Below are positions 20,268 through 61,966 of a stretch of 64,000 nucleotides of DNA, piece after piece. The position numbers and the translations under genes are program-made. Position 1 is the stretch's first letter, and the number at the start of each line of letters is the position of its first letter. The DNA is taken from NCBI GenBank assembly GCA_965140345.1, contig OZ223198.1:327809-391808 (forward strand). Reading direction: 5' to 3'. Origin of the DNA: Candidatus Kapaibacterium sp. GTDB taxonomy: Bacteria > Bacteroidota > Ignavibacteria > Kapaibacteriales > UBA2268. Below the pieces are notes generated by a model. That model saw nothing but the letters and a program-made list of their open reading frames with translations. It was not told where the DNA came from and did not search any database.

Positions 20268-21641
20268 ATGAGTACAAGTTTGCTGGATAACTTTAAAGTT
20301 ATACCTATTTCAAAACTAGTCAAAGCGGATTGGAATTATAAAACAGATGACCCTGTAAAAAAAGAAAAACTCAAAGAGAATATTAAACGAAATGGACAAA
20401 TAGAGAATGTTTTAGTTCGCTTGCTGGATACAGGATTCTACGAGATTGTCAATGGTAATCATCGACAAGATGTATTTGTAGAATTAGGATTCGAGGAAGT
20501 GGTAGCTTTTGATTTTGGGAAAATATCACTCGCAGCTGCACAGAGAATAGCTATTGAAACAAATGAAACTAAGTTTGATTCGGATACTGACAAATTAGCA
20601 AAGCTACTTCAAGAAATAAAACTTGAGTTTAACGAAGAAGATTTAAAGGCAACAATGCCATTTGACGAAGATGAGTTTTCGGAGATGATGTCAAGAGAAA
20701 TAACTGAGATTGATTTTGATCTTGACAACGATAAAGACTATTCAGAGATTGAAGAAGATAATTTTGATGAAGAGCTTCCGGAGAAGCCTAAAACTAAAAC
20801 AGGAGATCTATACGAACTAGGTATACATCGTCTTCTTTGCGGTGACTCTACAGACATCAATGACGTTAATTCTTTAATGGATGGTCAGACAGCCCACCTG
20901 CTTTATACAGATCCACCTTATAATATCGCTTACACTGAATTTAATAAGCTAAGAGGTTCGAGCAGAGAAGAACCAAAAGGAAAAGATTGGGGTGAAGAAT
21001 ATAACTCTTCATGGACTGATTATATGCCTGATGATCAATTCCAAAAATTCTTAATAGACTTCCTTGCATTAGCAAAGAAACATCTTATTCCTTACGGACA
21101 TTACTATGTCTGGCATGCTACAAATTATTACAGAGAAACCTTGAAGGCTTTTGAAGCAAATGAAATTCCTTACGATAAAGTACCAATTATCTGGAAAAAG
21201 AATGTTGCACCTCTTTCATGGGTTCATTATAAACGTATCCATGAGCCATGCATCTTTGGAGGGTTAGGAGCTGTTAACGGAGCTGGTAAAGCGGCAAGAT
21301 GGTTCGGACCAAATAATGAAACTACAGTATGGTGTATTGACAGAGATCCGAATAACAGTTATATCCATCCAACTCAAAAACCTGTAGCTTTGGCAGCCAG
21401 AGCCTTAAAGAATAGTTCGCAGCCTGGTGAAATTGTATTAGATATGTTTGCCGGTTCAGGTACTACTCTTATTTGTTCTGACAAGATGAGTAGAATCTGT
21501 TTTACCATGGAAAAAGAGCCTAAATTCTGTGATATGATTGTCAAAAGATATATAAAGCATTGTAAGGAATCAGATCAGTCCTGTGTAGTAAAAAGGAATG
21601 GTATAGAAATAGAAGAAAGCTTTTTTGAAGAAACTGAATAA
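20268..21641 (+). CDS. ParB-like nuclease domain fused to DNA N6-adenine/N4-cytosine methyltransferase
   Basis: N-terminus with FYEIVNGNHRQD (ParB/Srx fold). C-terminus with DPPY (motif IV) and HPTQKP...FAGSGTT (motif I), a beta-class amino-methyltransferase. Lies directly upstream of the terminase genes. Confidence 0.85.
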   Translation: MSTSLLDNFKVIPISKLVKADWNYKTDDPVKKEKLKENIKRNGQIENVLVRLLDTGFYEIVNGNHRQDVFVELGFEEVVAFDFGKISLAAAQRIAIETNETKFDSDTDKLAKLLQEIKLEFNEEDLKATMPFDEDEFSEMMSREITEIDFDLDNDKDYSEIEEDNFDEELPEKPKTKTGDLYELGIHRLLCGDSTDINDVNSLMDGQTAHLLYTDPPYNIAYTEFNKLRGSSREEPKGKDWGEEYNSSWTDYMPDDQFQKFLIDFLALAKKHLIPYGHYYVWHATNYYRETLKAFEANEIPYDKVPIIWKKNVAPLSWVHYKRIHEPCIFGGLGAVNGAGKAARWFGPNNETTVWCIDRDPNNSYIHPTQKPVALAARALKNSSQPGEIVLDMFAGSGTTLICSDKMSRICFTMEKEPKFCDMIVKRYIKHCKESDQSCVVKRNGIEIEESFFEETE

Positions 21642-28383: not shown

Positions 28384-29361
28384 CTATGATAGCTCTTCTC
28401 GTCTTCTAAGGAAGTAACTTATAAGCTCGTCTGGCAAGAAATTTTTCAAAGTTTGTTCGTTTTCTGTTCTAAAATATTCGTGTTTAGAATATTCTATCAA
28501 GCGAGCCAAGAAAATAATCCAATTAGAAATTTTTTCAAAACTGGTTGTTCCTGCGTGTTGCCTAAATTCCACAGAACCATGTCTCCAAAAAGCTCGGCTA
28601 TTTAATTTGTAATATCTATTTCTATGTGTAATTGAATTTTCTAGTCTTTCTAATCCGTCTTGCATCGAAGCTGTGTGGCCAACCGCATCTATCAATTCTT
28701 CAAAATTTGTTACTCTCATTGATTTACAATACCTATTGCTGGAGCCTCTTCTACTTTGTGGCATAAAAGAATCTATTAAATATTCAAGCTTAGCATAATT
28801 TTTGTACAAGTTTTTCCAAGTCTCAAGTTGAAAGTCAGAAGCATCAAAATGAATATGTAAGCCACAAGAGCGGTTTATCTTTGCACCTAAGCCTCGCAAA
28901 ATCAAGGTTACCGTTTTAAGTTGTCTCAAACCTGCCTCTCCAGTAAGTTTAGGACTAACCAATTCAAAAGTATTTGTTCCATTAAGTGAACCGTCTGTTG
29001 TGACTTTCCAATGATTTCTGGTTCGGTGATTATATCTTTCATGTTCCGTTGTGATACCTGCTGCAGTTAATTCAGTAACAAGTTCGTCTCTTGTTATTCC
29101 GAAGGCTTCAATCTCAACCCCAAAAGTGTGATTGAAAGTAAAATGTGTTAGGTTATAAGTTGCTTCTTCAACTACCTCTCTTAAGTTCCTTCTTCTTGAC
29201 CTCACCCTATCAGGATAAGATCGAGCAAAAACATTTTGTACGAAACCATAGCTACATCCCAATGCAACAGTTACTTCAGTTCTTGTTAATCCTAACTCTA
29301 GAAGTTGTTTTATTTTCCAAGTTTTGTTTTGATTTGCGTTTAAAATCTCTTGCCTTGTCAT
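28384..29361 (-). CDS. HTH domain fused to amidoligase (Amidoligase_2 / GCS2-like carboxylate-amine ligase)
   Basis: N-terminal HTH (KIKQLLELGLTRTEVTVALGCSYGFVQNVF). Ligase motifs FGVEIEAFG (G.E.E), ELVSP, GLHIHFD (H.H) and GSVEFRQHAGT (E.R) in the order seen in Amidoligase_2 / GCS2 enzymes. Confidence 0.55.
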   Translation of the reverse strand: MTRQEILNANQNKTWKIKQLLELGLTRTEVTVALGCSYGFVQNVFARSYPDRVRSRRRNLREVVEEATYNLTHFTFNHTFGVEIEAFGITRDELVTELTAAGITTEHERYNHRTRNHWKVTTDGSLNGTNTFELVSPKLTGEAGLRQLKTVTLILRGLGAKINRSCGLHIHFDASDFQLETWKNLYKNYAKLEYLIDSFMPQSRRGSSNRYCKSMRVTNFEELIDAVGHTASMQDGLERLENSITHRNRYYKLNSRAFWRHGSVEFRQHAGTTSFEKISNWIIFLARLIEYSKHEYFRTENEQTLKNFLPDELISYFLRRREELS

Positions 29362-31021: not shown

Positions 31022-32249
31022 TTAAGTAGTCCCTTCTGAAGTAATACAATGTGTAACTTTTCTTTTTCTGAACAGCCTCTAGAACATTATCTTCAATTCC
31101 ATTCTTGGCAAATATCCAATGAACATAAACCGGTGCTTCTCTATCTTGAGTTTGAAGTCGAGCTCTTACCTGCCAGTATATTGTTGATGAAAAATCTATG
31201 TTATAGAGGACTAAATAATCCGCAGTTGATAGATTAGTTCCCATTGAACCGGATTGCATCTGGGAAATAAATACTTTATCCGAGGATTGATTGAATTCTT
31301 CAGGAGATTCAGTGTGATTTGTAAATATCTTTTTAAGAGTCATGCCTTCGGCAATGAATTTGTAAAAGATTGCAATTTTTTTCCCTTTGTATTTCTCTTG
31401 AATAAACTTTGCTTTTGAAGTGTCTAGTATCAAATATTCACCGGATTCGGACTTGACTGTCCCGGAAGAAAGCTGATGTAATTTGTTTTGAAGCTTAACA
31501 GGTGTATCGCATACAACCTCTTCATCCTGGCGTTTAAATTTGTAGTACTTGTTTTTAACCAGGTGATCCATTAGGAGATATATTTGTCTGTCCATTTCAA
31601 CATAAAAGACTTCTTCTTGCAAGTCTGCAGTTTTAAAACCGGCTTCTTTTTGCGTAAAGCTGATTAAATAAGGAGATATCACTTCAGAAATTTCCTCTTT
31701 TTTTGCAGCTGCGTAATCGTTAATAGAGTAGCCATTGATTATTCTTTCTTTGACATTCACGAACTCTTTTGCCCATTTATAAAAGTTTTTATGCTTGAAT
31801 GGAGAGTTGTCAGAAATCCAAAATTGGTGATATATTTGAGAATGTGTTTCAGGTGAAGGAGTTCCACTTAGTAAAACAAGTGGTTTATTTTTTACAATCT
31901 CTTTTAGTTGCTTTGTTCTCTTTGACGGTTTCGGGAACGCACTAATACTATGAGCTTCATCGACAATAATAAAATCGTATGATTCTAGATCTTCAAGCTT
32001 ATGTATGCTTTCAAAGTTAATGATTTTGATTTGATAGTCATGTCCTTCGTCATCATAGTCTGCCTGGATAGATTTGATTGCTTTTTTCTTGGTAACAAAA
32101 AGTACCTTCTTAGCTTTATACATGTTGGCAAGCTCTAGAGCTATTCTTGATTTACCAACACGCATTTCGATAGCAAGGTAAACAATCAATAGCTCATTTA
32201 GTATTTGGAAAGCTTGATTAGCAATATTTCTTTGGTAATCTCTTAGCAT
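30993..32249 (-). CDS. SNF2-family DEAD/DEAH helicase
   Basis: DEAH box (FIIVDEAHSI) and motif III LLSGTP. Directly upstream of VRR-NUC. Confidence 0.7.
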   Translation of the reverse strand: MLRDYQRNIANQAFQILNELLIVYLAIEMRVGKSRIALELANMYKAKKVLFVTKKKAIKSIQADYDDEGHDYQIKIINFESIHKLEDLESYDFIIVDEAHSISAFPKPSKRTKQLKEIVKNKPLVLLSGTPSPETHSQIYHQFWISDNSPFKHKNFYKWAKEFVNVKERIINGYSINDYAAAKKEEISEVISPYLISFTQKEAGFKTADLQEEVFYVEMDRQIYLLMDHLVKNKYYKFKRQDEEVVCDTPVKLQNKLHQLSSGTVKSESGEYLILDTSKAKFIQEKYKGKKIAIFYKFIAEGMTLKKIFTNHTESPEEFNQSSDKVFISQMQSGSMGTNLSTADYLVLYNIDFSSTIYWQVRARLQTQDREAPVYVHWIFAKNGIEDNVLEAVQKKKSYTLYYFRRDYLNGSRISIAS

Positions 32250-32941
32250 CTTTCTTTGGCCTTGTATGGTTCTTGAAAAGCTTGATCAGGATGCTCAATC
32301 AATTTGAAAGTTGATTTTAGCGTATGAGTAAAACTTACAATATCCCGGTCATTTATTTCTTCTAGTTCAAGCACTTCCTTCTCTGAATAGACTGCACCTT
32401 TTTCGAACTGAATCATCTTAGTTTCAGGATTCCATGTAAAGTGCTCTTGAAATGTGTCTGAAAAGTATCTTTTAGCATAGCTAGCATACTTTTGAGCTTC
32501 TAGTTTAGATATTTGTTCCTGATAAGCCAGGATATGTAATTCAAGAGCAGGATATTGCTGTACTAGAGGTTCAAGTTTTAACATTTCAGTGTAAATTCTA
32601 GCTATCTCAGCTTGTATATCTCCTTTAAATTTAGTATCTTGCGTAGTTTCTACTGCTGATTTAAAGGTGGTATTTACTTCGTTCTTAAAAAAACTTGTCT
32701 CAACTTGATTGTTACTTTTGCCTTTATTATCATGTTGAGGCGTCCGGAAATTTGAATCGCTATCTTGGGTTGATTTTTGGCTCTGATTTTCAGCAATTTT
32801 GAAATTTGACAATTCAGCTTGAATCTTACCAATTCGCTGGTTACAGACATTTTTGTCGGCTTCTGTTGTTGCTTCTTTCAGCTTCAGTTGCCATTTTTCA
32901 AGATTTTTGCTTAACTGTTCTGCACGCTCCATTGGGGTCAC
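32243..32941 (-). CDS. hypothetical coiled-coil protein
   Basis: 232 aa, coupled to the helicase. Confidence 0.35.
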   Translation of the reverse strand: MTPMERAEQLSKNLEKWQLKLKEATTEADKNVCNQRIGKIQAELSNFKIAENQSQKSTQDSDSNFRTPQHDNKGKSNNQVETSFFKNEVNTTFKSAVETTQDTKFKGDIQAEIARIYTEMLKLEPLVQQYPALELHILAYQEQISKLEAQKYASYAKRYFSDTFQEHFTWNPETKMIQFEKGAVYSEKEVLELEEINDRDIVSFTHTLKSTFKLIEHPDQAFQEPYKAKERC

Positions 32942-33019
32942 CCTAAAAAGTGTCTAATATTAACCATAATGATAGAGAAATAATAATAACATTTAGATAA
33001 AAACTTTATCATAAATTAG

Positions 33020-33262
33020 CGTTTCATTTTCCCCATTTTCCCTAAATCGAAAAAAAATAATATTCATAATTATTGACATTTCCTTTGATTTTTATAAAAT
33101 ATAGCCTATTTAAAATTAAAGAGGGAAAACGGGGAAAACGGGGAATAATATCCGGAAAGTTGCCCTACGAGGAACATAGGAATTTTCATTATAGGGAGAA
33201 AACCCCAGAGCCTACCCCATTTTCCCCTTTTTCCCTTATTAAAGTCTGTTAATCGAAAAACA
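33020..33262. promoter_or_regulatory. iteron cluster / candidate replication origin
   Basis: GGGGAAAAC-type repeats: GGGAAAACGGGGAAAACGGGG at 33123-33143, GGGAGAAAACCCC at 33194-33206, and inverted copies CATTTTCCCCATTTTCCC at 33025-33042 and CCCCATTTTCCCCTTTTTCCC at 33215-33237. They flank an AT-rich spacer. AATCGAAAAA occurs at both edges. The cluster lies just downstream of the primase-helicase gene. Confidence 0.45.
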
Positions 33263-33268
33263 CCTGTA

Positions 33269-35602
33269 TCAAAATGCTGATTGTTGGTCTGCATGTCTTA
33301 CTCCTATACCAATAAAATGTTTCTTTTTTCCGTTACGTATTTCACTCTTTATGAAATCTTTTTCCTCAATACAAGCATAGAATTTTTTCTTGCCTAGAGG
33401 ATACTCTTTATTCTCATCGCAGAATTCTGCATATTTTTTATACAAATCAATTGCAACAACATATTTTGTAGATGCTATTTCGCAGCACTCATTCATAAAT
33501 TCGAGAACCTTGTCTTGTTCTTCCCGGTATTCCTGAGTAGCTTTAAGAACAGATTTGGGAGGTTTAAGACCATTTTTTTGATAATCCACCCATCCTTCTA
33601 TCACCCAGTTGAGGATACCACTCTTTTCTCGCTCGAAATCGGCCATTAATTCCTGTTGTGGGCGTCTTTCTGCCTCAGGTATGGTTACGGTGAAGGGAAT
33701 CATACAAATACGCCTCCAGATGCCTGCATCTGTCCCTTTGATGTTTGGTTTATGATTGCCATAAATCCAAAGAGTGTGCGTAGGTATAAATTCAAAGAAT
33801 TCCTTATGCAAGAATCTTCCTAGAATAGGGTCACCACCTGTAAGATCTTTTACTTTATTTTCGTTGAATGCCTTGTTCTCAGGAAGCTCTGCAGCAGTTA
33901 CCAAACGTGCAGCAGGAAGACGAGCTATGTCGTTCGGAATAGAATCATTTTGATTTACCATTAGCATTTCAGTAGGAGCTTTTTGGAAATAAGTTCCGAA
34001 TATCATTTTCAGGACATTGAAGAAAACAGATTTACCATTCTTACCCGTGCCGTAACAGAAGAAAAGTACTTCTTCAAGATGAGCTCCGCACATTGTAAGT
34101 CCTAGGGCTCTCTGGACAAACTTGATAAGTTCTATATCCTGGTTAAATATTGTTTCCATTGAGTCTTCAAAAGAATAACATTTTGCTTCAGGATCATAGA
34201 AAGCTTCACTTACTTTAGAGAGCATTCTAGTTGATTTGTGAGGTAGAAACTCATTAGTTTTTAGGTTGTAAGTACCATTTTGAGTGTTGAATAAATAGTT
34301 ATTCTGGTCAAAATCAGTTTGAAGGCAAGCGACATTACTTTCTTTAGAGGCTAAATCCAGTAATGCACTTATTGAGTTTCTGGACTCTGATTTAGAAGCA
34401 TGCTTAAAAAGATTTTGCTTCTTCTCTTCGCTATGAAGTCTGGTAAGTTCATCATACATATTCCGTACACAGCTTTTTGCATAAGCATAAACTTCACCTT
34501 TAAGAGCTGCATCCCAATATTTCCCATTCCAAATGTGCCATTTACCGGAAGTATGATTAAAGCGAAGGACATTTTTATACGCATCAACAAAACGTTCAGC
34601 ATTACCCATATCAGTATTCTGATATTCTTTTTCCTGAGTAAGCTTATTAATAAGAGAACCGTTATTCGTAACCTCGTACTTTGAGTAATGGCTGTCTGGG
34701 AAAAGTATGGATGTATCAAAACCATAGTTCTTAGCATGATAAACAACAGTACCTATCCCAAATTTTTCCCCACGGTTTTGTATTCGGTACTTCGTTCCTC
34801 TTTCAGTATCCGGACTCCATTCGTCTATAAGAGAAATAGCAGTAGCCTCATCAAAGTAATTTCCTACTGCGGAGACAATACCAAACCACTCGATGTATTC
34901 CATTTGCGCAGGGATATGAGAAAGCATTTCTGCAACTTGTTCTTTTGTTAGATTGCCATTTAAGCCACGCTGTTTATATTCTTTCTGTTCAGTTTCTCTT
35001 TTATCTTTTTCGATTTTGATAGCATCAACCATAGCTTGGCTGAGAGTATTATCTCCGTAAATATGATATTTACAATCTTTATTACCGTAAGAAATCCTTT
35101 CAATGTTTTTGCAAGAAGGATCAGCACCATATTTATCTATGAGACCGGCAGCGATATTGAAATATTCATTTGCATCAGTAACTCTGTTAGTAAAAGCGAA
35201 AACTATTCTCAAGCGATGATGATCTTCTGTGTGAGAAGGTGTTGTATAAATAAACAAAGCATTTTTACGAAGCCAGGAGTCGTTTATACAGTTTTCCCAG
35301 GATAGGTAACCGTTACTTTCAGTCTTCTTAGATTTATCGTACTTTTTTGTATCTTTGTTATAGTGAGAAACGGTATTATCAATGTCTATAGCTATTAGAT
35401 CAGCCCCCACGATATCACTCGTAGAGGGCTTTTTAACAGACGCTTTGGGTTTGAGAACACCGCCGGTGAAGGCGATCCCTTGAGATACGTGATTGAGAAT
35501 AGACTGAGCGTCCAACTTAACCTTTACCCATCCCGGACTTCTTGGGTCACCTTTACCGATAATATTTTTATTTATACTAAGTTCGAATTCTAAATTCTTC
35601 AT
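33269..35602 (-). CDS. DNA primase-helicase (PrimPol/D5_N + P4-type C-terminal helicase)
   Basis: 777 aa. Walker A CYGTGKNGKS in the C-terminal NTPase typical of the phage/plasmid primase P4 family. Confidence 0.8.
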   Translation of the reverse strand: MKNLEFELSINKNIIGKGDPRSPGWVKVKLDAQSILNHVSQGIAFTGGVLKPKASVKKPSTSDIVGADLIAIDIDNTVSHYNKDTKKYDKSKKTESNGYLSWENCINDSWLRKNALFIYTTPSHTEDHHRLRIVFAFTNRVTDANEYFNIAAGLIDKYGADPSCKNIERISYGNKDCKYHIYGDNTLSQAMVDAIKIEKDKRETEQKEYKQRGLNGNLTKEQVAEMLSHIPAQMEYIEWFGIVSAVGNYFDEATAISLIDEWSPDTERGTKYRIQNRGEKFGIGTVVYHAKNYGFDTSILFPDSHYSKYEVTNNGSLINKLTQEKEYQNTDMGNAERFVDAYKNVLRFNHTSGKWHIWNGKYWDAALKGEVYAYAKSCVRNMYDELTRLHSEEKKQNLFKHASKSESRNSISALLDLASKESNVACLQTDFDQNNYLFNTQNGTYNLKTNEFLPHKSTRMLSKVSEAFYDPEAKCYSFEDSMETIFNQDIELIKFVQRALGLTMCGAHLEEVLFFCYGTGKNGKSVFFNVLKMIFGTYFQKAPTEMLMVNQNDSIPNDIARLPAARLVTAAELPENKAFNENKVKDLTGGDPILGRFLHKEFFEFIPTHTLWIYGNHKPNIKGTDAGIWRRICMIPFTVTIPEAERRPQQELMADFEREKSGILNWVIEGWVDYQKNGLKPPKSVLKATQEYREEQDKVLEFMNECCEIASTKYVVAIDLYKKYAEFCDENKEYPLGKKKFYACIEEKDFIKSEIRNGKKKHFIGIGVRHADQQSAF

Positions 35603-35605
35603 ATG

Positions 35606-36097
35606 TTAGCTCCATAGCAATTCTTGAGCTGCCTTGGTTAAGTTATTTCTCTGTATAAATTTCTTTTTGATGTTTTCAGGGAAGTCTTGGATATCGACAT
35701 TATCTAAATACCAGTCGTATTCCTTAGCTGTTACCTTCCGTTTCTTCTCTTTCCTTTTTTTTGCCTCTAAATCTCTCACAGCGTTTTCCAGCATGCTAAT
35801 CGACTCATCAGTCATCTTCGCCTTAAAAAGCTTGGCAAACTTCTTTTTGAGAGCAATTGAGGACATCTTTTCAATACCATGATCTATAATGACTACTTCT
35901 CCTCTCGGACTTCGCCAACATTCCTTACCTGCTTGTAGATGTTTGATGTAAGGCTTGAGATTCATTCTGTCGTCAAACTTCTTTTCAATAGTTGAAAGGT
36001 AGACATTAGTCATAGTCATTAGTAATTCTTTGGCCATTACAATTCTTTGATATTCAGAGATTTGTTCGGCAGTCGGTTCGAATATTGTTCCTTGCAT
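35606..36097 (-). CDS. hypothetical protein
   Basis: 163 aa, basic C-terminus. Confidence 0.35.
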   Translation of the reverse strand: MQGTIFEPTAEQISEYQRIVMAKELLMTMTNVYLSTIEKKFDDRMNLKPYIKHLQAGKECWRSPRGEVVIIDHGIEKMSSIALKKKFAKLFKAKMTDESISMLENAVRDLEAKKRKEKKRKVTAKEYDWYLDNVDIQDFPENIKKKFIQRNNLTKAAQELLWS

Positions 36098-37868: not shown

Positions 37869-39032
37869 TTAGGCTCCTATGTTTTTAAAGAATTCTTTTT
37901 GTTCCATCTTATTAAGTATGTAATCTGCAGCAGGTTGTCTTTTAAGAAGATTATCCATTGCACCAGTACCATTGACCTTTCCTGACATGCGCATAAAGTC
38001 TTTAGGTTCTTCCCATTCGAGATTAAAAAGATTTAAAAGGTAAGGTATCTTTTTAGCTGCAGTAGAATCCGTTTGATCTTTCAAACTGTATGTTGGTGCA
38101 GAATGCCAGTCCTTTGGAGCAACATTGAATACCTTTTCTGCTTCAATGCCGAGAGATTCTTGTATCATTTGCTTATACATGTGAAGTTGAATCTCATGAG
38201 TTTCGAAGAATCCTGATTTACCGGATTTGAAATCGACAATCGCAGTAGTTCGTCTGATTTGCTTTGTTTCCTTTGGCTGGCCTTTCTTTTCTCCGGATTT
38301 GTAGACTTCTCCAAAGAATCCCTTCTCTTCGATATCCATTTCGCAAATAAGATCAACCGCACCTGCATATTTGTGTTCATCTTTTTTATAGAAGCCAACA
38401 GCTTCGATTGAAATTGGATCTACATTGTAGTCCCAGATAAACTGGATAAGAGAAGCCAGGTCTTTTTTGATTTGCCATTCCCAGCCGGCAGTATCAAAGT
38501 CAAGTTTCTGCTCTTCTGTATAGAGCTCAATTCTTTTTTTGATAGTATCAAAATCAAAACTCCTTTCTTTCTTGGTGTTCCCACTTCTGAGGTAGTCAGA
38601 AATTAAAGTATGAAGGAGTGTTCCGTAAGAAGCTTTTTCTCTAAGCATTTTGTAGTAACCTTTCATTCCAAGATCTGCAATTAGCTTTTTGATGGAATAA
38701 GGAGTCGGCATTGTTTTATCAATGATAGTAGTGACACTAGGGTAAAAAGTAACAAGTCCTGATGCGTTAGTAAACTTCTCACCGCTTTCCATAGGTTTTT
38801 CAATTAGCTGAGGAATACCATCCACGGTGTAATAATAACGCATCCCTTTTTGATTGAAACGGTAAATTTTAGGGAAAGAGATTTTAGCTTCAAATGCCGG
38901 ATTAATATATTCCGGTGTCATAGATTGGATTTCGTCATCCGAATCATCTTTAAATACTTCAGCCGTTTGAGTAAGCATGTTTTGAATTAAAGCCTGAAGT
39001 TGGGCTTGAGTTTGGGCAAGTGATTTAGCCAT
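37869..39032 (-). CDS. PD-(D/E)XK family nuclease (RecB-like/DUF2800-like, tentative)
   Basis: AGAVDLICEMD ... IVDFKSGKS...ETHEIQL arranged like D...E.K nuclease motifs. 387 aa. Confidence 0.4.
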   Translation of the reverse strand: MAKSLAQTQAQLQALIQNMLTQTAEVFKDDSDDEIQSMTPEYINPAFEAKISFPKIYRFNQKGMRYYYTVDGIPQLIEKPMESGEKFTNASGLVTFYPSVTTIIDKTMPTPYSIKKLIADLGMKGYYKMLREKASYGTLLHTLISDYLRSGNTKKERSFDFDTIKKRIELYTEEQKLDFDTAGWEWQIKKDLASLIQFIWDYNVDPISIEAVGFYKKDEHKYAGAVDLICEMDIEEKGFFGEVYKSGEKKGQPKETKQIRRTTAIVDFKSGKSGFFETHEIQLHMYKQMIQESLGIEAEKVFNVAPKDWHSAPTYSLKDQTDSTAAKKIPYLLNLFNLEWEEPKDFMRMSGKVNGTGAMDNLLKRQPAADYILNKMEQKEFFKNIGA

Positions 39033-41384: not shown

Positions 41385-41828
41385 ATGCAATATAAAATAT
41401 TGTTTTATACAATGCAAATTATTTTTACAAATATTCAAAAATATTTTATGACACAGTTCGAAAGATTAGAAAAAGTGGCTAAGTTGCATTTTGGCTCATT
41501 AGCTGGTGTGGCTAGATTGTTAGATAAAAAACCTCAATCATTTTATTCTTATAAAAGCAGAGATAAATTTGGTGAATTACTAATTCTACAATTGGCTGAG
41601 ATTGGTATAAACCCCAAATATATCACTGATGGCGAAGAACCGATGCTTCTCGAAAGCAATAAATCTCCAAAGAAGAAACCCGAACCGAATGTAGCATCAG
41701 TAGACTATGTAGAAATGATAGAGCTTCCTGACATAACAAAGATGAGCCCGGAACAGATGCGCAAATGGCGGGAAGCAGCTTTAAAAACGATTGATAAAAT
41801 AGATAAGATTTTGGAGGTTTTGGGGTGA
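41385..41828 (+). CDS. HTH transcriptional regulator (cI/Cro-like); likely start at ATG 41448
   Basis: LEKVAKLHFGSLAGVARLLDKKPQSFYSY is an XRE-type HTH. Divergent from the minus-strand regulatory genes. Its stop overlaps the next start. Confidence 0.5.
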   Translation: MQYKILFYTMQIIFTNIQKYFMTQFERLEKVAKLHFGSLAGVARLLDKKPQSFYSYKSRDKFGELLILQLAEIGINPKYITDGEEPMLLESNKSPKKKPEPNVASVDYVEMIELPDITKMSPEQMRKWREAALKTIDKIDKILEVLG

Positions 41829-42688
41829 GTAAAAAAACATTAGAATCAGATGGAATGAATTATGTTAGCATTGAGTTCGTTTGCCCAATATGCAATTATA
41901 AGAATATTGAGTCTTATATAAACATTCCAGCTGCTAAAACAATTGATGGGGGGACATCGCAAAATTTTACTGAAATGCTTTGTTCTAATTGCTTATCTTG
42001 TTACGGAATCAATATTATTTTATCTGAACATGGTGAAACTATTTTAGATATTGATCCTGATGTCGAAGGGCTCACAATTCTTGCTTATCACAGTGATATT
42101 ATCAATACATTTAGTAAAACCAATCAAACTTCAAGAATCTTTATCTATGAAGATTCTATAGAAAATCTGGAAAAGTTGAAAGAAATTGCTAATGTTACTT
42201 TGGAAGATGAATTAAATTTCGTGATTCTTCAGATGACTTTTGCACAATCCTTGACAACTCTTGAAAGTTATCTGTATAAGACTATCTCCTATAATATTAA
42301 CAGTCATGCTGTATTTCTTAAACGATTTGTTGCATCATATCAGTTCCCAAATAACAATCAACACAAGCTTAGCTTTAACAAAATATTTGAAGCGCAGAAA
42401 TGGATGCAGGGCATAATTGATGGCTTGCTTCAGAACCAGATATATCATAGACTTGATCAAGTCAACAAATTGTATGAGGCAGCTTTTGGCTTTAAACTTC
42501 CTGAGTATAGCAAAATTGACGACATCATCAAACTAAGACATGATATAGTCCATCGTAATGGAGAAACTAAAGACGGAGAAAAGATCAATATCACTCCGGA
42601 TGAACTCAAATCAGCAATAGACAGCATAGAAGAATTCATTAAGGCCACTGAAGTAAAGGTGCAGAAAGCTGTTAAAGATCTAGCATAA
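41825..42688 (+). CDS. zinc-ribbon protein with C-terminal HEPN-like R-x4-H motif (candidate toxin/abortive-infection effector)
   Basis: N-terminal CPICNYKN...CSNCLSC (4 Cys). C-terminal KLRHDIVHRNG fits an Rx4H motif. Translationally coupled to the HTH regulator. Confidence 0.4.
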   Translation: MSKKTLESDGMNYVSIEFVCPICNYKNIESYINIPAAKTIDGGTSQNFTEMLCSNCLSCYGINIILSEHGETILDIDPDVEGLTILAYHSDIINTFSKTNQTSRIFIYEDSIENLEKLKEIANVTLEDELNFVILQMTFAQSLTTLESYLYKTISYNINSHAVFLKRFVASYQFPNNNQHKLSFNKIFEAQKWMQGIIDGLLQNQIYHRLDQVNKLYEAAFGFKLPEYSKIDDIIKLRHDIVHRNGETKDGEKINITPDELKSAIDSIEEFIKATEVKVQKAVKDLA

Positions 42689-60742: not shown

Positions 60743-61966
60743 CTAATCCCAAGCCTTAAAAGCTTCTTTTACATCACTCTCAGCAATTTTAACATATTTT
60801 TGAAAAGATTGTCTCGATTTATGACCGGTAACTTTCATCACCGTTTCGGGAAGTATACCTAACTTCAAACTCAAAGTGATGAATGTTCGCCTAGCAGTAT
60901 GAGACGAAACTAGTTCATACTTTGGAATAATCTCTTCCTTTTTTGCACCGGCAATATACTTAGTTATTTTTATATCCTCACTTATACCTGCCAGTTGACA
61001 AAGTTTCTTGATATTTAGATGATATCTGGCTTTTGATCTGAATTGTATTGACTCAATAGGATGTTTCAAAAATATCTTGAAGAGTTTGCTAACTATTGGA
61101 ATAGTTACTTCTTCAGATGTTTTTTGAGTAGTCAATCTTATTTCTCTATTCTCCATATCTACATTCATTGGGCTAAGCTTCATAATATCTGATTGTCTTA
61201 AACCTGTATAGCATTGAATTAAAAAATAATACTTGCTCCAAAGCAATTTTTCAGTTTTTCCGGATAGTTCAAGCTCTTCTAATTTTTCTAATTCTTGGGT
61301 AGTCAATACTATCTTCGATGCAACTTTGTTTTCAAAAGAGAAGAATTTGTAATCCATGGATGTATTAATCTTTTCAATATAAGCGTAACTACAAATAGTC
61401 TTTATAAACTTAATATGTGAATGTATATATCCTGTGCTTAGATTTAGAGTATTTAAATATCTAATTAGAGACAAGAAAAATGGCTCATTGATATCATTGA
61501 ACAAAATTTGAATTTGTTGATCCTTCTCGAATCCTACAAGATTTTGATAAAGTTGATTATAAGTTTTAAGTGTATTGGAATTAAACCGATTGCCTCTTTG
61601 AGTCAATGCCTCTCCAGTTGCAAATCTTTTCAATAAATTTTCTGTATACTCTATAAAAGTAGTAAAATCACTCTGCTTTTTATTTAAAAAAGTCTTTAAT
61701 TGATGTCTTGACAGACTACCTATACCATGTTCCTCTTCCACCCTATTTACAAATCGCGTTATAGAACTAATCTTTTTATCTATCTGAGCATTCTTTTCAA
61801 AATGATTTTTTTCTCTCGTAGAAATCCTTTTGGTTCGTTTGCTAAAGTTTGCTGGATTAATACTAACACCAGAAGAAATCTGAATCCTAAACCCATTCAT
61901 CGCTATATTAAGCATTATAACCGCTTTGTTGTTTTTGACAGATAAATATGGAGATATTCTAACCAT
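60743..61966 (-). CDS. tyrosine site-specific integrase (Bacteroidetes phage/CTn type)
   Basis: C-terminal catalytic region with HTARRTF, GHKS and terminal Tyr-containing block. 407 aa. Last gene before host mla genes. Confidence 0.8.
   Translation of the reverse strand: MVRISPYLSVKNNKAVIMLNIAMNGFRIQISSGVSINPANFSKRTKRISTREKNHFEKNAQIDKKISSITRFVNRVEEEHGIGSLSRHQLKTFLNKKQSDFTTFIEYTENLLKRFATGEALTQRGNRFNSNTLKTYNQLYQNLVGFEKDQQIQILFNDINEPFFLSLIRYLNTLNLSTGYIHSHIKFIKTICSYAYIEKINTSMDYKFFSFENKVASKIVLTTQELEKLEELELSGKTEKLLWSKYYFLIQCYTGLRQSDIMKLSPMNVDMENREIRLTTQKTSEEVTIPIVSKLFKIFLKHPIESIQFRSKARYHLNIKKLCQLAGISEDIKITKYIAGAKKEEIIPKYELVSSHTARRTFITLSLKLGILPETVMKVTGHKSRQSFQKYVKIAESDVKEAFKAWD

What the first reader, a model, noticed from the sequence alone, without database searches (positions are those of the whole stretch)
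33020..33262. Inverted iteron cluster (GGGGAAAAC units) downstream of the primase-helicase gene, a candidate replication origin
Two tandem GGGRAAAAC copies lie at 33123-33143. Two tandem inverted copies lie at 33025-33042 and two more at 33215-33237. A palindromic GGGAGAAAACCCC sits at 33194-33206. AATCGAAAAA occurs at both edges, and a ~65-bp AT-rich spacer lies in the middle. This symmetric iteron plus AT-rich layout next to a P4-type primase-helicase is what phage/plasmid origins look like. The 62-aa ORF called across it (33106..33294) is probably spurious.
Basis: seen in the sequence. Interest (0 to 1): 0.55.

Follow-up and report, generated by a model that had tools for sequence, protein, structure and literature searches.

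The report
Prophage replication origin with inverted iterons
The repeat cluster is real and is most likely the replication origin that this prophage's own primase-helicase recognises and opens, a layout already known from staphylococcal pathogenicity islands and related elements, so it is a well-supported but ordinary find.

Summary
Three 9-bp-period arrays of GGGRAAAAY sit at 33025-33043 (-), 33122-33146 (+) and 33215-33237 (-). A lone degenerate unit lies at 33195-33203. The arrays begin 31 bp after the stop codon of a 777-aa primase-helicase. They form the two best spaced inverted repeats in the 64-kb window. A 78-bp spacer with 15% G+C lies between the left and central arrays.

The protein's best solved relative is PriRep5 of SaPI5. 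PriRep5 is a self-loading helicase whose C-terminal winged helix binds iterons placed immediately 3' of its gene, on both sides of an AT-rich centre.

I examined 74 loci encoding relatives of the protein. In 30 of them the best spaced inverted repeat of the whole locus starts within 150 bp of the stop codon; about 2 are expected by chance. The arms usually have a 9-bp internal period and the spacers are AT-enriched. The unit sequence differs between loci, and the downstream genes are unrelated.

So this is a PICI/SaPI-type origin inside a complete prophage of an FCB-group bacterium: a new member of a known kind. The likely iteron-binding part is the C-terminal domain, not the primase N-domain. 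The 'palindrome' is only a degenerate unit. The 62-aa ORF looks spurious. A strong sigma-70-like promoter inside the spacer is not shared by relatives and remains unexplained.

The parts
33269..35602 (-). Primase-helicase gene (777 aa), the presumed origin-binding initiator and self-loading SF3 helicase. The C-terminal residues ~683-768 are predicted to be winged-helix-like.
   Evidence: Pfam matches PriCT_2, D5_N, DUF5906 and Pox_D5. The best PDB sequence match is 7OLA, PriRep5 of SaPI5, E 1.6e-14 over residues 433-746. The AF2 model has pLDDT 84, and the C-terminal domain reads H-H-strand-H-H-hairpin. Foldseek matches the ASFV PrimPol and poxvirus D5/E5 primase-helicases.
33215..33237 (-). 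Right iteron array, about 2.3 units (GGGAAAAAG GGGAAAATG GGG on the - strand). It is the first array after the stop codon, 31 bp away.
   Evidence: (D1, I1)
33195..33203 (+). Single degenerate unit GGAGAAAAC.
   Evidence: (D3)
33144..33214 (.). Spacer B: 71 bp, 41% G+C, not AT-rich. It lies between the convergent central and right arrays.
33122..33146 (+). Central iteron array, 2.6 units (AGGGAAAAC GGGGAAAAC GGGGAAT). It is shared by both inverted repeats.
   Evidence: (D3, I1, I2)
33044..33121 (.). Spacer A: 78 bp, 15.4% G+C. This is the presumed DNA-unwinding element.
   Evidence: Its G+C is in the lowest 0.26% of 78-bp windows. By nearest-neighbour duplex stability, only 0.1% of 78-bp windows in the prophage part are as unstable.
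33073..33100 (+). Sigma-70-like promoter-like site TTGACA-16-TAAAAT inside spacer A. It points antisense to the genes, across the central and right arrays. Its role is unknown and it is not a family feature.
   Evidence: It matches 11 of 12 consensus positions. It is one of only 4 sites in the window with at least 11 of 12. No comparable site lies inside the modules of 27 relatives.
33025..33043 (-). Left iteron array, 2 units (AGGGAAAAT GGGGAAAAT on the - strand).
   Evidence: (D1, I2)
33045..33054 (.). AATCGAAAAA, copy 1. It lies 1 bp from the left array.
   Evidence: D6
33251..33260 (.). AATCGAAAAA, copy 2. It lies 14 bp from the right array. Together with D1 this makes the left and right arrays direct repeats of each other.
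   Evidence: D1, D6
33106..33294 (-). 62-aa ORF across the repeats, probably not a gene.
   Evidence: It has no Pfam match. An exhaustive phmmer search of 1.84 billion representatives gave only four weak multi-stretch matches, all to long proteins of 516-2551 aa. Its sequence includes SPFSPFS, translated from the repeats.

Best explanation
The 33025-33260 segment is the vegetative replication origin of this prophage, of the type described for SaPI/PICI elements.

Proposed mechanism (all steps inferred by homology):
1. The primase-helicase encoded just upstream binds the 9-bp GGGRAAAAY iterons through its C-terminal winged-helix domain.
2. It assembles hexamers on the oppositely oriented iteron sets.
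3. It melts the 78-bp, 15% G+C spacer (33044-33121) without a separate loader.
4. It primes DNA synthesis with its own N-terminal primase. Replication then proceeds outward.

What is shown here: the repeat anatomy, its statistical exceptionality, the homology of the protein to PriRep5, and the recurrence of the same architecture at the same place in relatives.

What is inferred: binding, melting and origin activity.
For: Anatomy:
- There are three 9-bp-period arrays in opposite orientations, beginning 31 bp after the stop codon.
- They form the top two spaced inverted repeats of the 64-kb window.
- All exact unit matches in the window lie here.
- The spacer is among the least stable duplex stretches of the prophage.

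Initiator homology:
- The best solved relative is 7OLA, PriRep5 of SaPI5 (E 1.6e-14, residues 433-746).
- PMC9371898 states that SaPI Reps bind iterons through a C-terminal winged helix. It places 6-12 iterons immediately downstream of rep, with an AT-rich centre and at least two iterons on each side in opposite directions. It also describes Reps as self-loading.
- PMC6092414 shows the same pri-rep-ori organisation driving plasmid replication for an E. coli PICI.
- PMC4234260 maps the pRN1 origin to a 100-nt stem-loop just 3' of its primase-helicase gene. It notes a similar stem-loop 3' of the replication gene of phage BIP-1.

Comparative evidence:
- Five of the six closest relatives I could read (42-52% identity) have two or three tandem 9-bp units, an AT-rich spacer of about 50-70 bp and inverted units starting at or within about 20 bp of the stop codon. 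In the sixth (L004, 54%) the module follows inserted ORFs. The unit differs in each.
- In 30 of 74 related loci the best spaced inverted repeat of the whole locus starts within -30 to +150 bp of the stop codon. About 2.0 are expected; binomial P 1.6e-27.
- Such repeats are 20-34 times denser there than elsewhere in the loci.
- The arm-internal period is 9 bp in 16 of 21 loci.
- Spacers are AT-richer than their locus in 24 of 27 loci, Wilcoxon P 2e-7, including in hosts with 55-68% G+C.
- Downstream genes are mutually unrelated, so the module tracks the primase-helicase gene.

C-terminal domain:
- It is the least conserved folded part of the protein. That fits a specificity domain.
- It is predicted to be winged-helix-like.
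- A relative carries a faint RFX winged-helix Pfam hit.
Against: - There is no experimental evidence for this element.
- The array nearest the stop codon flanks a spacer that is not AT-rich (41% G+C). The AT-rich spacer is flanked by divergently oriented units. The closest relative with a similar unit (L004) has convergent units around its AT-rich spacer. The exact melting site is therefore uncertain.
- My test for co-variation between C-terminal-domain similarity and iteron similarity was inconclusive (Spearman 0.10, P 0.07).
- Only 27-31 of 74 related loci show a clear module. Two 40%-identical relatives (L009, L010) do not.
- The units are 9 bp, against the penta- or hexanucleotide iterons reported for SaPIs.
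Confidence: 0.8

Rival explanations
1. The cluster is a transcriptional control region. The repeats would be operators for a phage regulator, for example the unknown 232-aa product of the downstream gene. They would control the promoter-like site in the spacer or expression of the downstream genes.
For: A near-consensus sigma-70-like site (TTGACA-16-TAAAAT, 11 of 12) sits between two repeat arrays. The cluster fills the gap before the next gene.
Against: - The promoter-like site points away from the downstream genes.
- None of 27 relatives has a site matching at least 10 of 12 positions inside its module.
- The module stays at the primase-helicase stop codon while the downstream genes are unrelated between loci.
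- The region lies in the middle of a co-oriented replication operon, not at the divergent switch region near 40-41 kb.
- The downstream protein has no detectable DNA-binding domain.
Confidence: 0.08
2. The inverted repeats encode a structured RNA. On the + strand it would be an antisense or origin RNA driven by the spacer promoter. On the - strand it would be a 3' UTR or processing hairpin of the primase-helicase mRNA.
For: Both strands fold better than shuffled sequence: + strand -44.1 kcal/mol, z -2.8; - strand -53.8 kcal/mol, z -3.4. A strong promoter-like site would start a + strand transcript near 33107.
Against: - No Rfam family matches; the best hits are far below gathering score.
- No terminator-like site was found.
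- Each arm is itself a tandem 9-bp repeat, here and in relatives. A protein-binding array requires that; an RNA stem does not.
- Among 28 arm mismatches in relatives, only 5 are G-U compatible on the sense strand, 12 on the antisense strand and 11 on neither.
- The promoter is not conserved.
Confidence: 0.06
3. The cluster is another kind of cis site built from repeats: a packaging (pac) site, a partition centromere or a recombination site.
For: Such sites are also often repeat arrays. A ParB-like/methyltransferase fusion is encoded at 20268-21641.
Against: - The terminase and portal genes lie 10 kb away.
- The only integrase in the window is 27 kb away, beyond host genes.
- In relatives the module is linked to the primase-helicase stop codon, not to packaging or partition genes.
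Confidence: 0.03

Closest known systems
SaPI/PICI replication origins (SaPIbov1, SaPI1, SaPI5, EcCICFT073), served by Rep or PriRep self-loading helicases
   Same: - The origin lies immediately 3' of the initiator-helicase gene.
- Two or more short iterons sit on each side of an AT-rich region, in opposite orientations.
- The initiator is an SF3 helicase with a C-terminal winged helix. In SaPI5 it is fused to a primase, and that protein (PriRep5, 7OLA) is detectably homologous to this one.
- The iteron sequence is specific to each element.
   Different: - The host element is a complete prophage with large terminase and portal genes, not a satellite.
- The host belongs to the FCB group, not to the Gram-positive cocci or Gram-negative species in which PICIs were described.
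- The units have a 9-bp period, against the reported 5-6-nt iterons.
- There are three arrays and two spacers, only one of them AT-rich.
pRN1 (Sulfolobus plasmid) origin, and the predicted origin of Bordetella phages BIP-1/BPP-1
   Same: The replication protein combines a primase, an SF3 helicase and a C-terminal winged helix. In the BIP-1 protein a PriCT_2 domain takes the place of pRN1's helical domain, as in the protein here. The origin is a roughly 100-nt inverted-repeat (stem-loop) element directly 3' of the gene. The modules here are 110-125 bp from arm to arm.
   Different: The pRN1 authors stress that their origin lacks iteron structure. Here, and in most relatives, each arm is a tandem 9-bp repeat.
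Satellite phage P4 ori/crr with the alpha protein
   Same: One multifunctional primase-helicase binds short repeats through a C-terminal winged helix (quoting Ziegelin and Lanka 1995 and Yeo et al. 2002). Sources name relatives of this protein 'P4 family phage/plasmid primase'.
   Different: - The P4 alpha primase is of the Toprim type. The N-terminal half here carries PriCT_2 and aligns structurally with archaeo-eukaryotic-type viral primase-helicases.
- From my own knowledge, P4 needs two separated repeat clusters, ori and crr. No second cluster exists in this window.
- phmmer against the PDB returned only primase-helicase and phosphohistidine-phosphatase chains at E up to 1. From my own knowledge the solved P4 origin-binding domain is entry 1KA8, and it is not among them.
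Classical iteron plasmid origins (pSC101, R6K, P1, F)
   Same: Repeated initiator-binding sites lie next to an AT-rich unwinding element.
   Different: From general knowledge, those origins use about 17-22-bp direct repeats spaced at helical periodicity. They use a dedicated non-helicase Rep protein, DnaA boxes and host DnaB loading. Here the units are 9 bp and inverted, there is no DnaA box within the region, and the initiator is itself the helicase.

Membership tests
SaPI/PICI-type origin (Rep/PriRep self-loading helicase origin) | The origin lies immediately 3' of the initiator-helicase ORF. | tested here: met
   The first array starts 31 bp after the stop codon at 33269. The same placement holds in 30 of 74 relatives.
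SaPI/PICI-type origin (Rep/PriRep self-loading helicase origin) | Two sets of short iterons flank an AT-rich region, with at least two on each side in opposite orientation. | tested here: met
   Two units at 33026-33043 (-) and 2.6 units at 33122-33146 (+) flank a 78-bp spacer of 15% G+C.
SaPI/PICI-type origin (Rep/PriRep self-loading helicase origin) | The initiator is homologous to SaPI Rep/PriRep: an SF3 helicase with a C-terminal winged-helix domain. | tested here: met
   phmmer gives E 1.6e-14 to 7OLA (PriRep5), with the alignment running through residue 746. The predicted C-terminal fold is H-H-strand-H-H-hairpin at pLDDT about 80-89. I did not run a separate structural search on the domain alone.
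SaPI/PICI-type origin (Rep/PriRep self-loading helicase origin) | The initiator binds its own iterons specifically, and the rep-ori segment replicates autonomously. | not testable with these tools
   This needs EMSA or footprinting and a plasmid maintenance assay.
Phage-inducible chromosomal island (PICI) as an element | The element is a small satellite that lacks its own full set of structural and packaging genes. | tested here: not met
   The window carries large terminase, portal and exonuclease genes, plus a long run of co-oriented ORFs in the same roughly 42-kb block. The origin is PICI-like but the element is a prophage.
P4 ori/crr system | A second cis-acting repeat cluster (crr) lies at a distance from ori. 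| tested here: not met
   The window has no other cluster of the unit. The remaining one-mismatch matches are scattered and at chance frequency.
P4 ori/crr system | The initiator shares P4 alpha's Toprim primase and its origin-binding domain. | tested here: inconclusive
   No Toprim Pfam hit was found. PriCT_2 and D5_N are present instead. phmmer against the PDB returned only primase-helicase and phosphohistidine-phosphatase chains at E up to 1; from my own knowledge the solved P4 origin-binding domain is entry 1KA8, and it is not among them. I did not run a fold-level comparison of the C-terminal domain alone.
pRN1-type stem-loop origin | A roughly 100-nt inverted repeat lies directly 3' of a primase-SF3 helicase-winged-helix gene. 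| tested here: met
   I1 spans 127 bp (33116-33242) and I2 spans 112 bp (33027-33138). The domain order of the protein matches. The iteron substructure of the arms is a difference.
Known RNA families (Rfam 15) | The sequence matches a curated covariance model at its gathering score. | tested here: not met
   The best hit scores 33.9 bits against a gathering score of 139.7, to a plant microRNA model.

The most novel reading that the evidence does not exclude
The module is two or three tandem 9-bp units, an AT-rich spacer of about 60 bp, and the same units inverted, placed at the stop codon of the primase-helicase gene. [quoted passage not shown] The novel reading is that it is instead the general origin design of D5_N/SF3 primase-helicases in tailed (pro)phages. 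I saw it in loci from Kapabacteria, Ignavibacteria, Chloroflexota, Planctomycetota, Verrucomicrobiota, Saccharibacteria and Proteobacteria. On this reading the window's three-array version, with a strong internal antisense promoter, would be a variant in which transcription from inside the unwinding element helps melting or supplies an origin RNA.
Probability: 0.35. Interest if true: 0.45.

Novelty: new member of a known kind. Interest (0 to 1): 0.3.

Why it matters
It gives a concrete, testable origin and initiator pair for an uncultured FCB-group prophage lineage that has no close relatives: the nearest protein is 54% identical.

The comparison with 74 loci suggests a simple rule for annotating origins next to this widespread primase-helicase family: look for 9-bp-phased inverted arrays at the stop codon.

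It also shows that the 'PICI-type' origin layout is not a safe marker for telling satellites from prophages. Beyond that, the mechanism is the one already worked out for SaPI Reps.

Tried and rejected
- DNA similarity search of 32000-36000 against the phage collection found nothing.
- Single-protein scans for close relatives in viral and genome contigs found none. Alignment-based scans were needed.
- Rfam search at a permissive E-value gave only sub-threshold microRNA-type noise.
- The terminator scan found none.
- The DnaA-box search found none in the region.
- I tested co-variation of C-terminal-domain identity with iteron similarity across 27 loci. The result was weak and inconclusive, Spearman 0.10. 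The relative with the most similar unit (L004/P0003) does not have a notably closer C-terminal domain.
- Conservation of the + strand promoter was rejected: no site inside 27 related modules.
- I tested for a strand bias of G-U-compatible mismatches as a sign of an RNA stem. There was no sense-strand bias.
- The whole-protein fold search confirmed the primase-helicase class but did not resolve the C-terminal domain on its own.
- The exact-sequence look-up did not give accessions or the organism name. The host is placed only to the FCB group, from T9SS sorting domains.
- The Ubeda 2007 and 2012 papers on SaPI origins are not held in the library. I cite them through PMC9371898.
- P0002's contig has no DNA on file.

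Full report
OBSERVATION

The gap between the primase-helicase gene (33269-35602, - strand) and the next gene (32243-32941, - strand) is 327 bp. Tandem Repeats Finder reports three arrays with a 9-bp period:
- 33025-33042: 2.0 copies, 100% matches.
- 33123-33145: 2.6 copies, 100% matches.
- 33215-33235: 2.3 copies, 91% matches.

The unit is GGGRAAAAY. It reads on the - strand in the outer arrays and on the + strand in the central array. The central array therefore forms an inverted repeat with each outer array:
- I1: 33116-33143 / 33215-33242, 28 nt, 86% complementary, 71 nt apart.
- I2: 33027-33043 / 33122-33138, 17 nt, 94% complementary, 78 nt apart.

A further degenerate unit (GGAGAAAAC) lies at 33195-33203. 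AATCGAAAAA occurs beside both outer arrays, at 33045-33054 and 33251-33260.

The cluster is not chance:
- All three exact GGGGAAAAY matches in the window are here.
- Six of the 26 one-mismatch matches fall within 212 bp.
- I1 and I2 are the two best inverted repeats with a 20-140-bp spacer in the whole 64 kb.

The spacer between the left and central arrays (33044-33121) has 15.4% G+C, in the lowest 0.26% of 78-bp windows. By nearest-neighbour stability, only 0.1% of 78-bp windows in the prophage part are as easy to melt. The other spacer (33144-33214) has 41% G+C.

The 'palindrome' at 33194-33206 is only a degenerate unit followed by CCC. The AT-rich spacer is 78 bp and off-centre.

CONTEXT

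The genes around the cluster are all on the - strand and form a replication module:
- exonuclease (37869-39032)
- DUF4406
- a 777-aa protein with PriCT_2, D5_N, DUF5906 and Pox_D5 matches
- [the repeat cluster]
- a 232-aa protein with no family match
- an SNF2/DEAD-like helicase
- a VRR-NUC nuclease

Large terminase, portal, amidoligase and a ParB-like/methyltransferase fusion lie at 20-29 kb. The element is therefore a complete prophage, not a satellite.

Flanking host proteins carry T9SS C-terminal sorting domains. Related loci come from Kapabacteria, Ignavibacteria and other phyla. The host is therefore an FCB-group bacterium.

THE PROTEIN

The best solved relative by sequence is 7OLA (E 1.6e-14, residues 433-746). 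7OLA is PriRep5 of the staphylococcal island SaPI5. According to PMC9371898:
- SaPI Reps are self-loading SF3 helicases.
- They also act as initiators, through a C-terminal winged helix that recognises short iterons.
- Six to twelve iterons lie immediately downstream of the rep ORF.
- An AT-rich region sits at the centre, with at least two iterons on each side pointing in opposite directions.
- PriRep5 and Rep1 bind their own origins specifically and without ATP.

An AlphaFold2 model of the window protein (pLDDT 84) matches the ASFV PrimPol and poxvirus D5/E5 primase-helicases over its length. It ends in helix-helix-strand-helix-helix-hairpin (residues 683-768), which is a winged-helix-like topology.

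This C-terminal part is the least conserved folded region among relatives. Mean column identity is 0.20-0.39, against 0.6-0.75 in the helicase core. Across 27 more distant loci it is 26% against 50%. That is the expected pattern for a specificity domain. One relative carries a faint RFX winged-helix Pfam hit.

RELATIVES

The protein is rare. The nearest sequence among 5.8 billion clusters is 54% identical.

I read the region after the stop codon in six full-length relatives of 42-54% identity. All six have the same design with a different unit:

| Locus | Unit and layout |
|---|---|
| L001 | TAGTTACTT x3 / spacer / inverted x3 |
| L002 | GTTGAAAAA x3 / spacer / inverted x3 |
| L003 | GTCGGTCAT x2 / spacer / inverted x2, then a second module with GTTAGTCAY |
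| L005 | GTTAATTTT / GTTGAAAAT |
| L006 | GTTAAnnnn x3 |
| L004 | GGGGAAAAT / GATGAAAAT; partly shares the window's unit; the module follows inserted ORFs |

I then collected 74 loci with enough downstream sequence from genome and viral contigs. I scored every spaced inverted repeat in each roughly 7-kb locus. Results:
- The best repeat of the whole locus starts between -30 and +150 bp of the primase-helicase stop codon in 30 of 74 loci. About 2.0 are expected; binomial P 1.6e-27.
- Repeats of score 14 or more are 34 times denser there than elsewhere. They are still 3.4 times denser if every other such repeat is assumed to lie in the 10% of noncoding DNA.
- The dominant internal period of the arms is 9 bp in 16 of 21 loci.
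- The median spacer is 58 bp. The spacer is AT-richer than its locus in 24 of 27 cases (Wilcoxon P 2e-7). Examples are 66-69% A+T in loci that are 39-41% A+T overall.
- The first downstream ORFs share no detectable similarity between loci. The module goes with the primase-helicase gene, not with its neighbour.

The architecture is not universal. L009 and L010, both 40% identical, lack a clear module.

INTERPRETATION

- PMC6092414 shows the same organisation for Gram-negative PICIs. It demonstrates rep- and ori-dependent plasmid replication for EcCICFT073. [quoted passage not shown]
- PMC4234260 maps the pRN1 origin to a 100-nt stem-loop just 3' of its primase-SF3 helicase-winged-helix gene. 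It had already noted a similar stem-loop 3' of the replication gene of Bordetella phage BIP-1.

The window therefore adds a prophage from a new host group to a known kind of origin.

The most likely mechanism, inferred by homology and not shown:
1. The C-terminal winged helices bind the 9-bp units.
2. Hexamers assemble on oppositely oriented arrays.
3. The 15% G+C spacer melts.
4. The N-terminal primase starts synthesis.

DIFFERENCES AND OPEN POINTS

1. There are three arrays rather than two. The array pair that occupies the usual position next to the stop codon encloses a spacer that is not AT-rich. The AT-rich spacer is enclosed by divergently oriented units, whereas L004 has convergent units around its AT-rich spacer. 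I cannot say which pair loads the helicase.
2. A near-consensus sigma-70-like site (TTGACA-16-TAAAAT, 33073-33100, + strand) lies inside the AT-rich spacer and points antisense to the genes. It is one of only four sites in the window with at least 11 of 12 matches. Two of the others lie on the - strand, the coding strand of this module, so this consensus may be in use here. None of 27 related modules has such a site, so it is not part of the family design. It could be chance in AT-rich DNA, or a lineage-specific transcriptional aid to melting.
3. My co-variation test between C-terminal domain and iteron sequence was inconclusive.

RIVALS

- An operator array is unlikely. The module follows the primase-helicase gene across unrelated downstream genes. 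It also sits inside a co-oriented operon rather than at the switch region.
- A structured RNA is not excluded by folding energies (z -2.8 and -3.4). But no Rfam family matches, there is no terminator, and the arms are internally periodic. Arm mismatches in relatives show no sense-strand G-U bias (5 sense, 12 antisense, 11 neither).
- Packaging, partition or recombination sites are not supported by gene linkage.

THE 62-aa ORF

The ORF at 33106-33294 overlaps the end of the primase-helicase gene and translates the repeats, giving ...SPFSPFS.... It has no Pfam match. An exhaustive search gave only four weak multi-stretch matches to long proteins of 516-2551 aa.

VERDICT

The feature is real and statistically exceptional, and it is very probably the prophage's replication origin (confidence 0.8). 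It is a new member of a known kind. Interest is modest.

Noticed in passing
window 33073-33100 (+): A near-consensus sigma-70-like promoter (TTGACA-16-TAAAAT) lies inside the AT-rich origin spacer and points antisense into the 3' end of the primase-helicase gene. It is one of four sites in the window with at least 11 of 12 matches. It is absent from 27 related modules.
   Followed up: partly
window 30737-30709 (-) and 29574-29545 (-): There is a perfect TTGACA-17-TATAAT and an 11-of-12 site on the - strand, the coding strand of this module. This suggests that a sigma-70-type consensus is used in this FCB-group prophage.
   Followed up: no
L003 7398-7721: Two tandem origin-like modules carry different 9-bp units (GTCGGTCAT and GTTAGTCAY). 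Each is followed by the ribosome-binding site and GTG start of the downstream gene, and the first copy is cut short by a stop codon. This looks like a duplicated origin whose iterons have diverged.
   Followed up: partly
L118 74-2350 and 2607-2958 (IMGVR_UViG_3300025121_000075): A 758-aa protein with a DUF927 domain is followed by inverted clusters of GGGGAAAAT / GGGGAAT. This is the same unit as in the window, although the two proteins show no BLASTP similarity. It is either convergence or a shared small DNA-binding module.
   Followed up: partly
L004 4102-4115 and 4180-4193: TTGCAGAGAAAAAA occurs twice, 78 bp apart, in the AT-rich stretch just after that relative's iteron module. In this locus the module lies about 450 bp from the primase-helicase stop codon, after inserted ORFs.
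   Followed up: no
L009, L010, L011 (Kapabacteria chromosome OY762428.1): One chromosome carries three separate loci encoding 39-40% identical full-length relatives of the primase-helicase. Only L011 has a clear inverted repeat at the stop codon.
   Followed up: partly
window 28384-29361 (-); L001 10060-11674; L003 9672-11245: An Amidoligase_2 gene lies downstream of the replication module in the window. In L001 and L003 it is accompanied by a GGACT-domain gene. The pairing looks like a conserved accessory cassette of this phage group.
   Followed up: no
window 41825-42688 (+) and 60743-61966 (-): A HEPN RiboL-PSP protein sits next to the presumed prophage end. A tyrosine integrase with an Arm-DNA-binding domain lies 19 kb further on, beyond host T9SS-sorted proteins, and may belong to another element.
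   Followed up: no
window 20268-21641 (+): A ParB-like nuclease domain is fused to a DNA methyltransferase, just upstream of the terminase genes.
   Followed up: no
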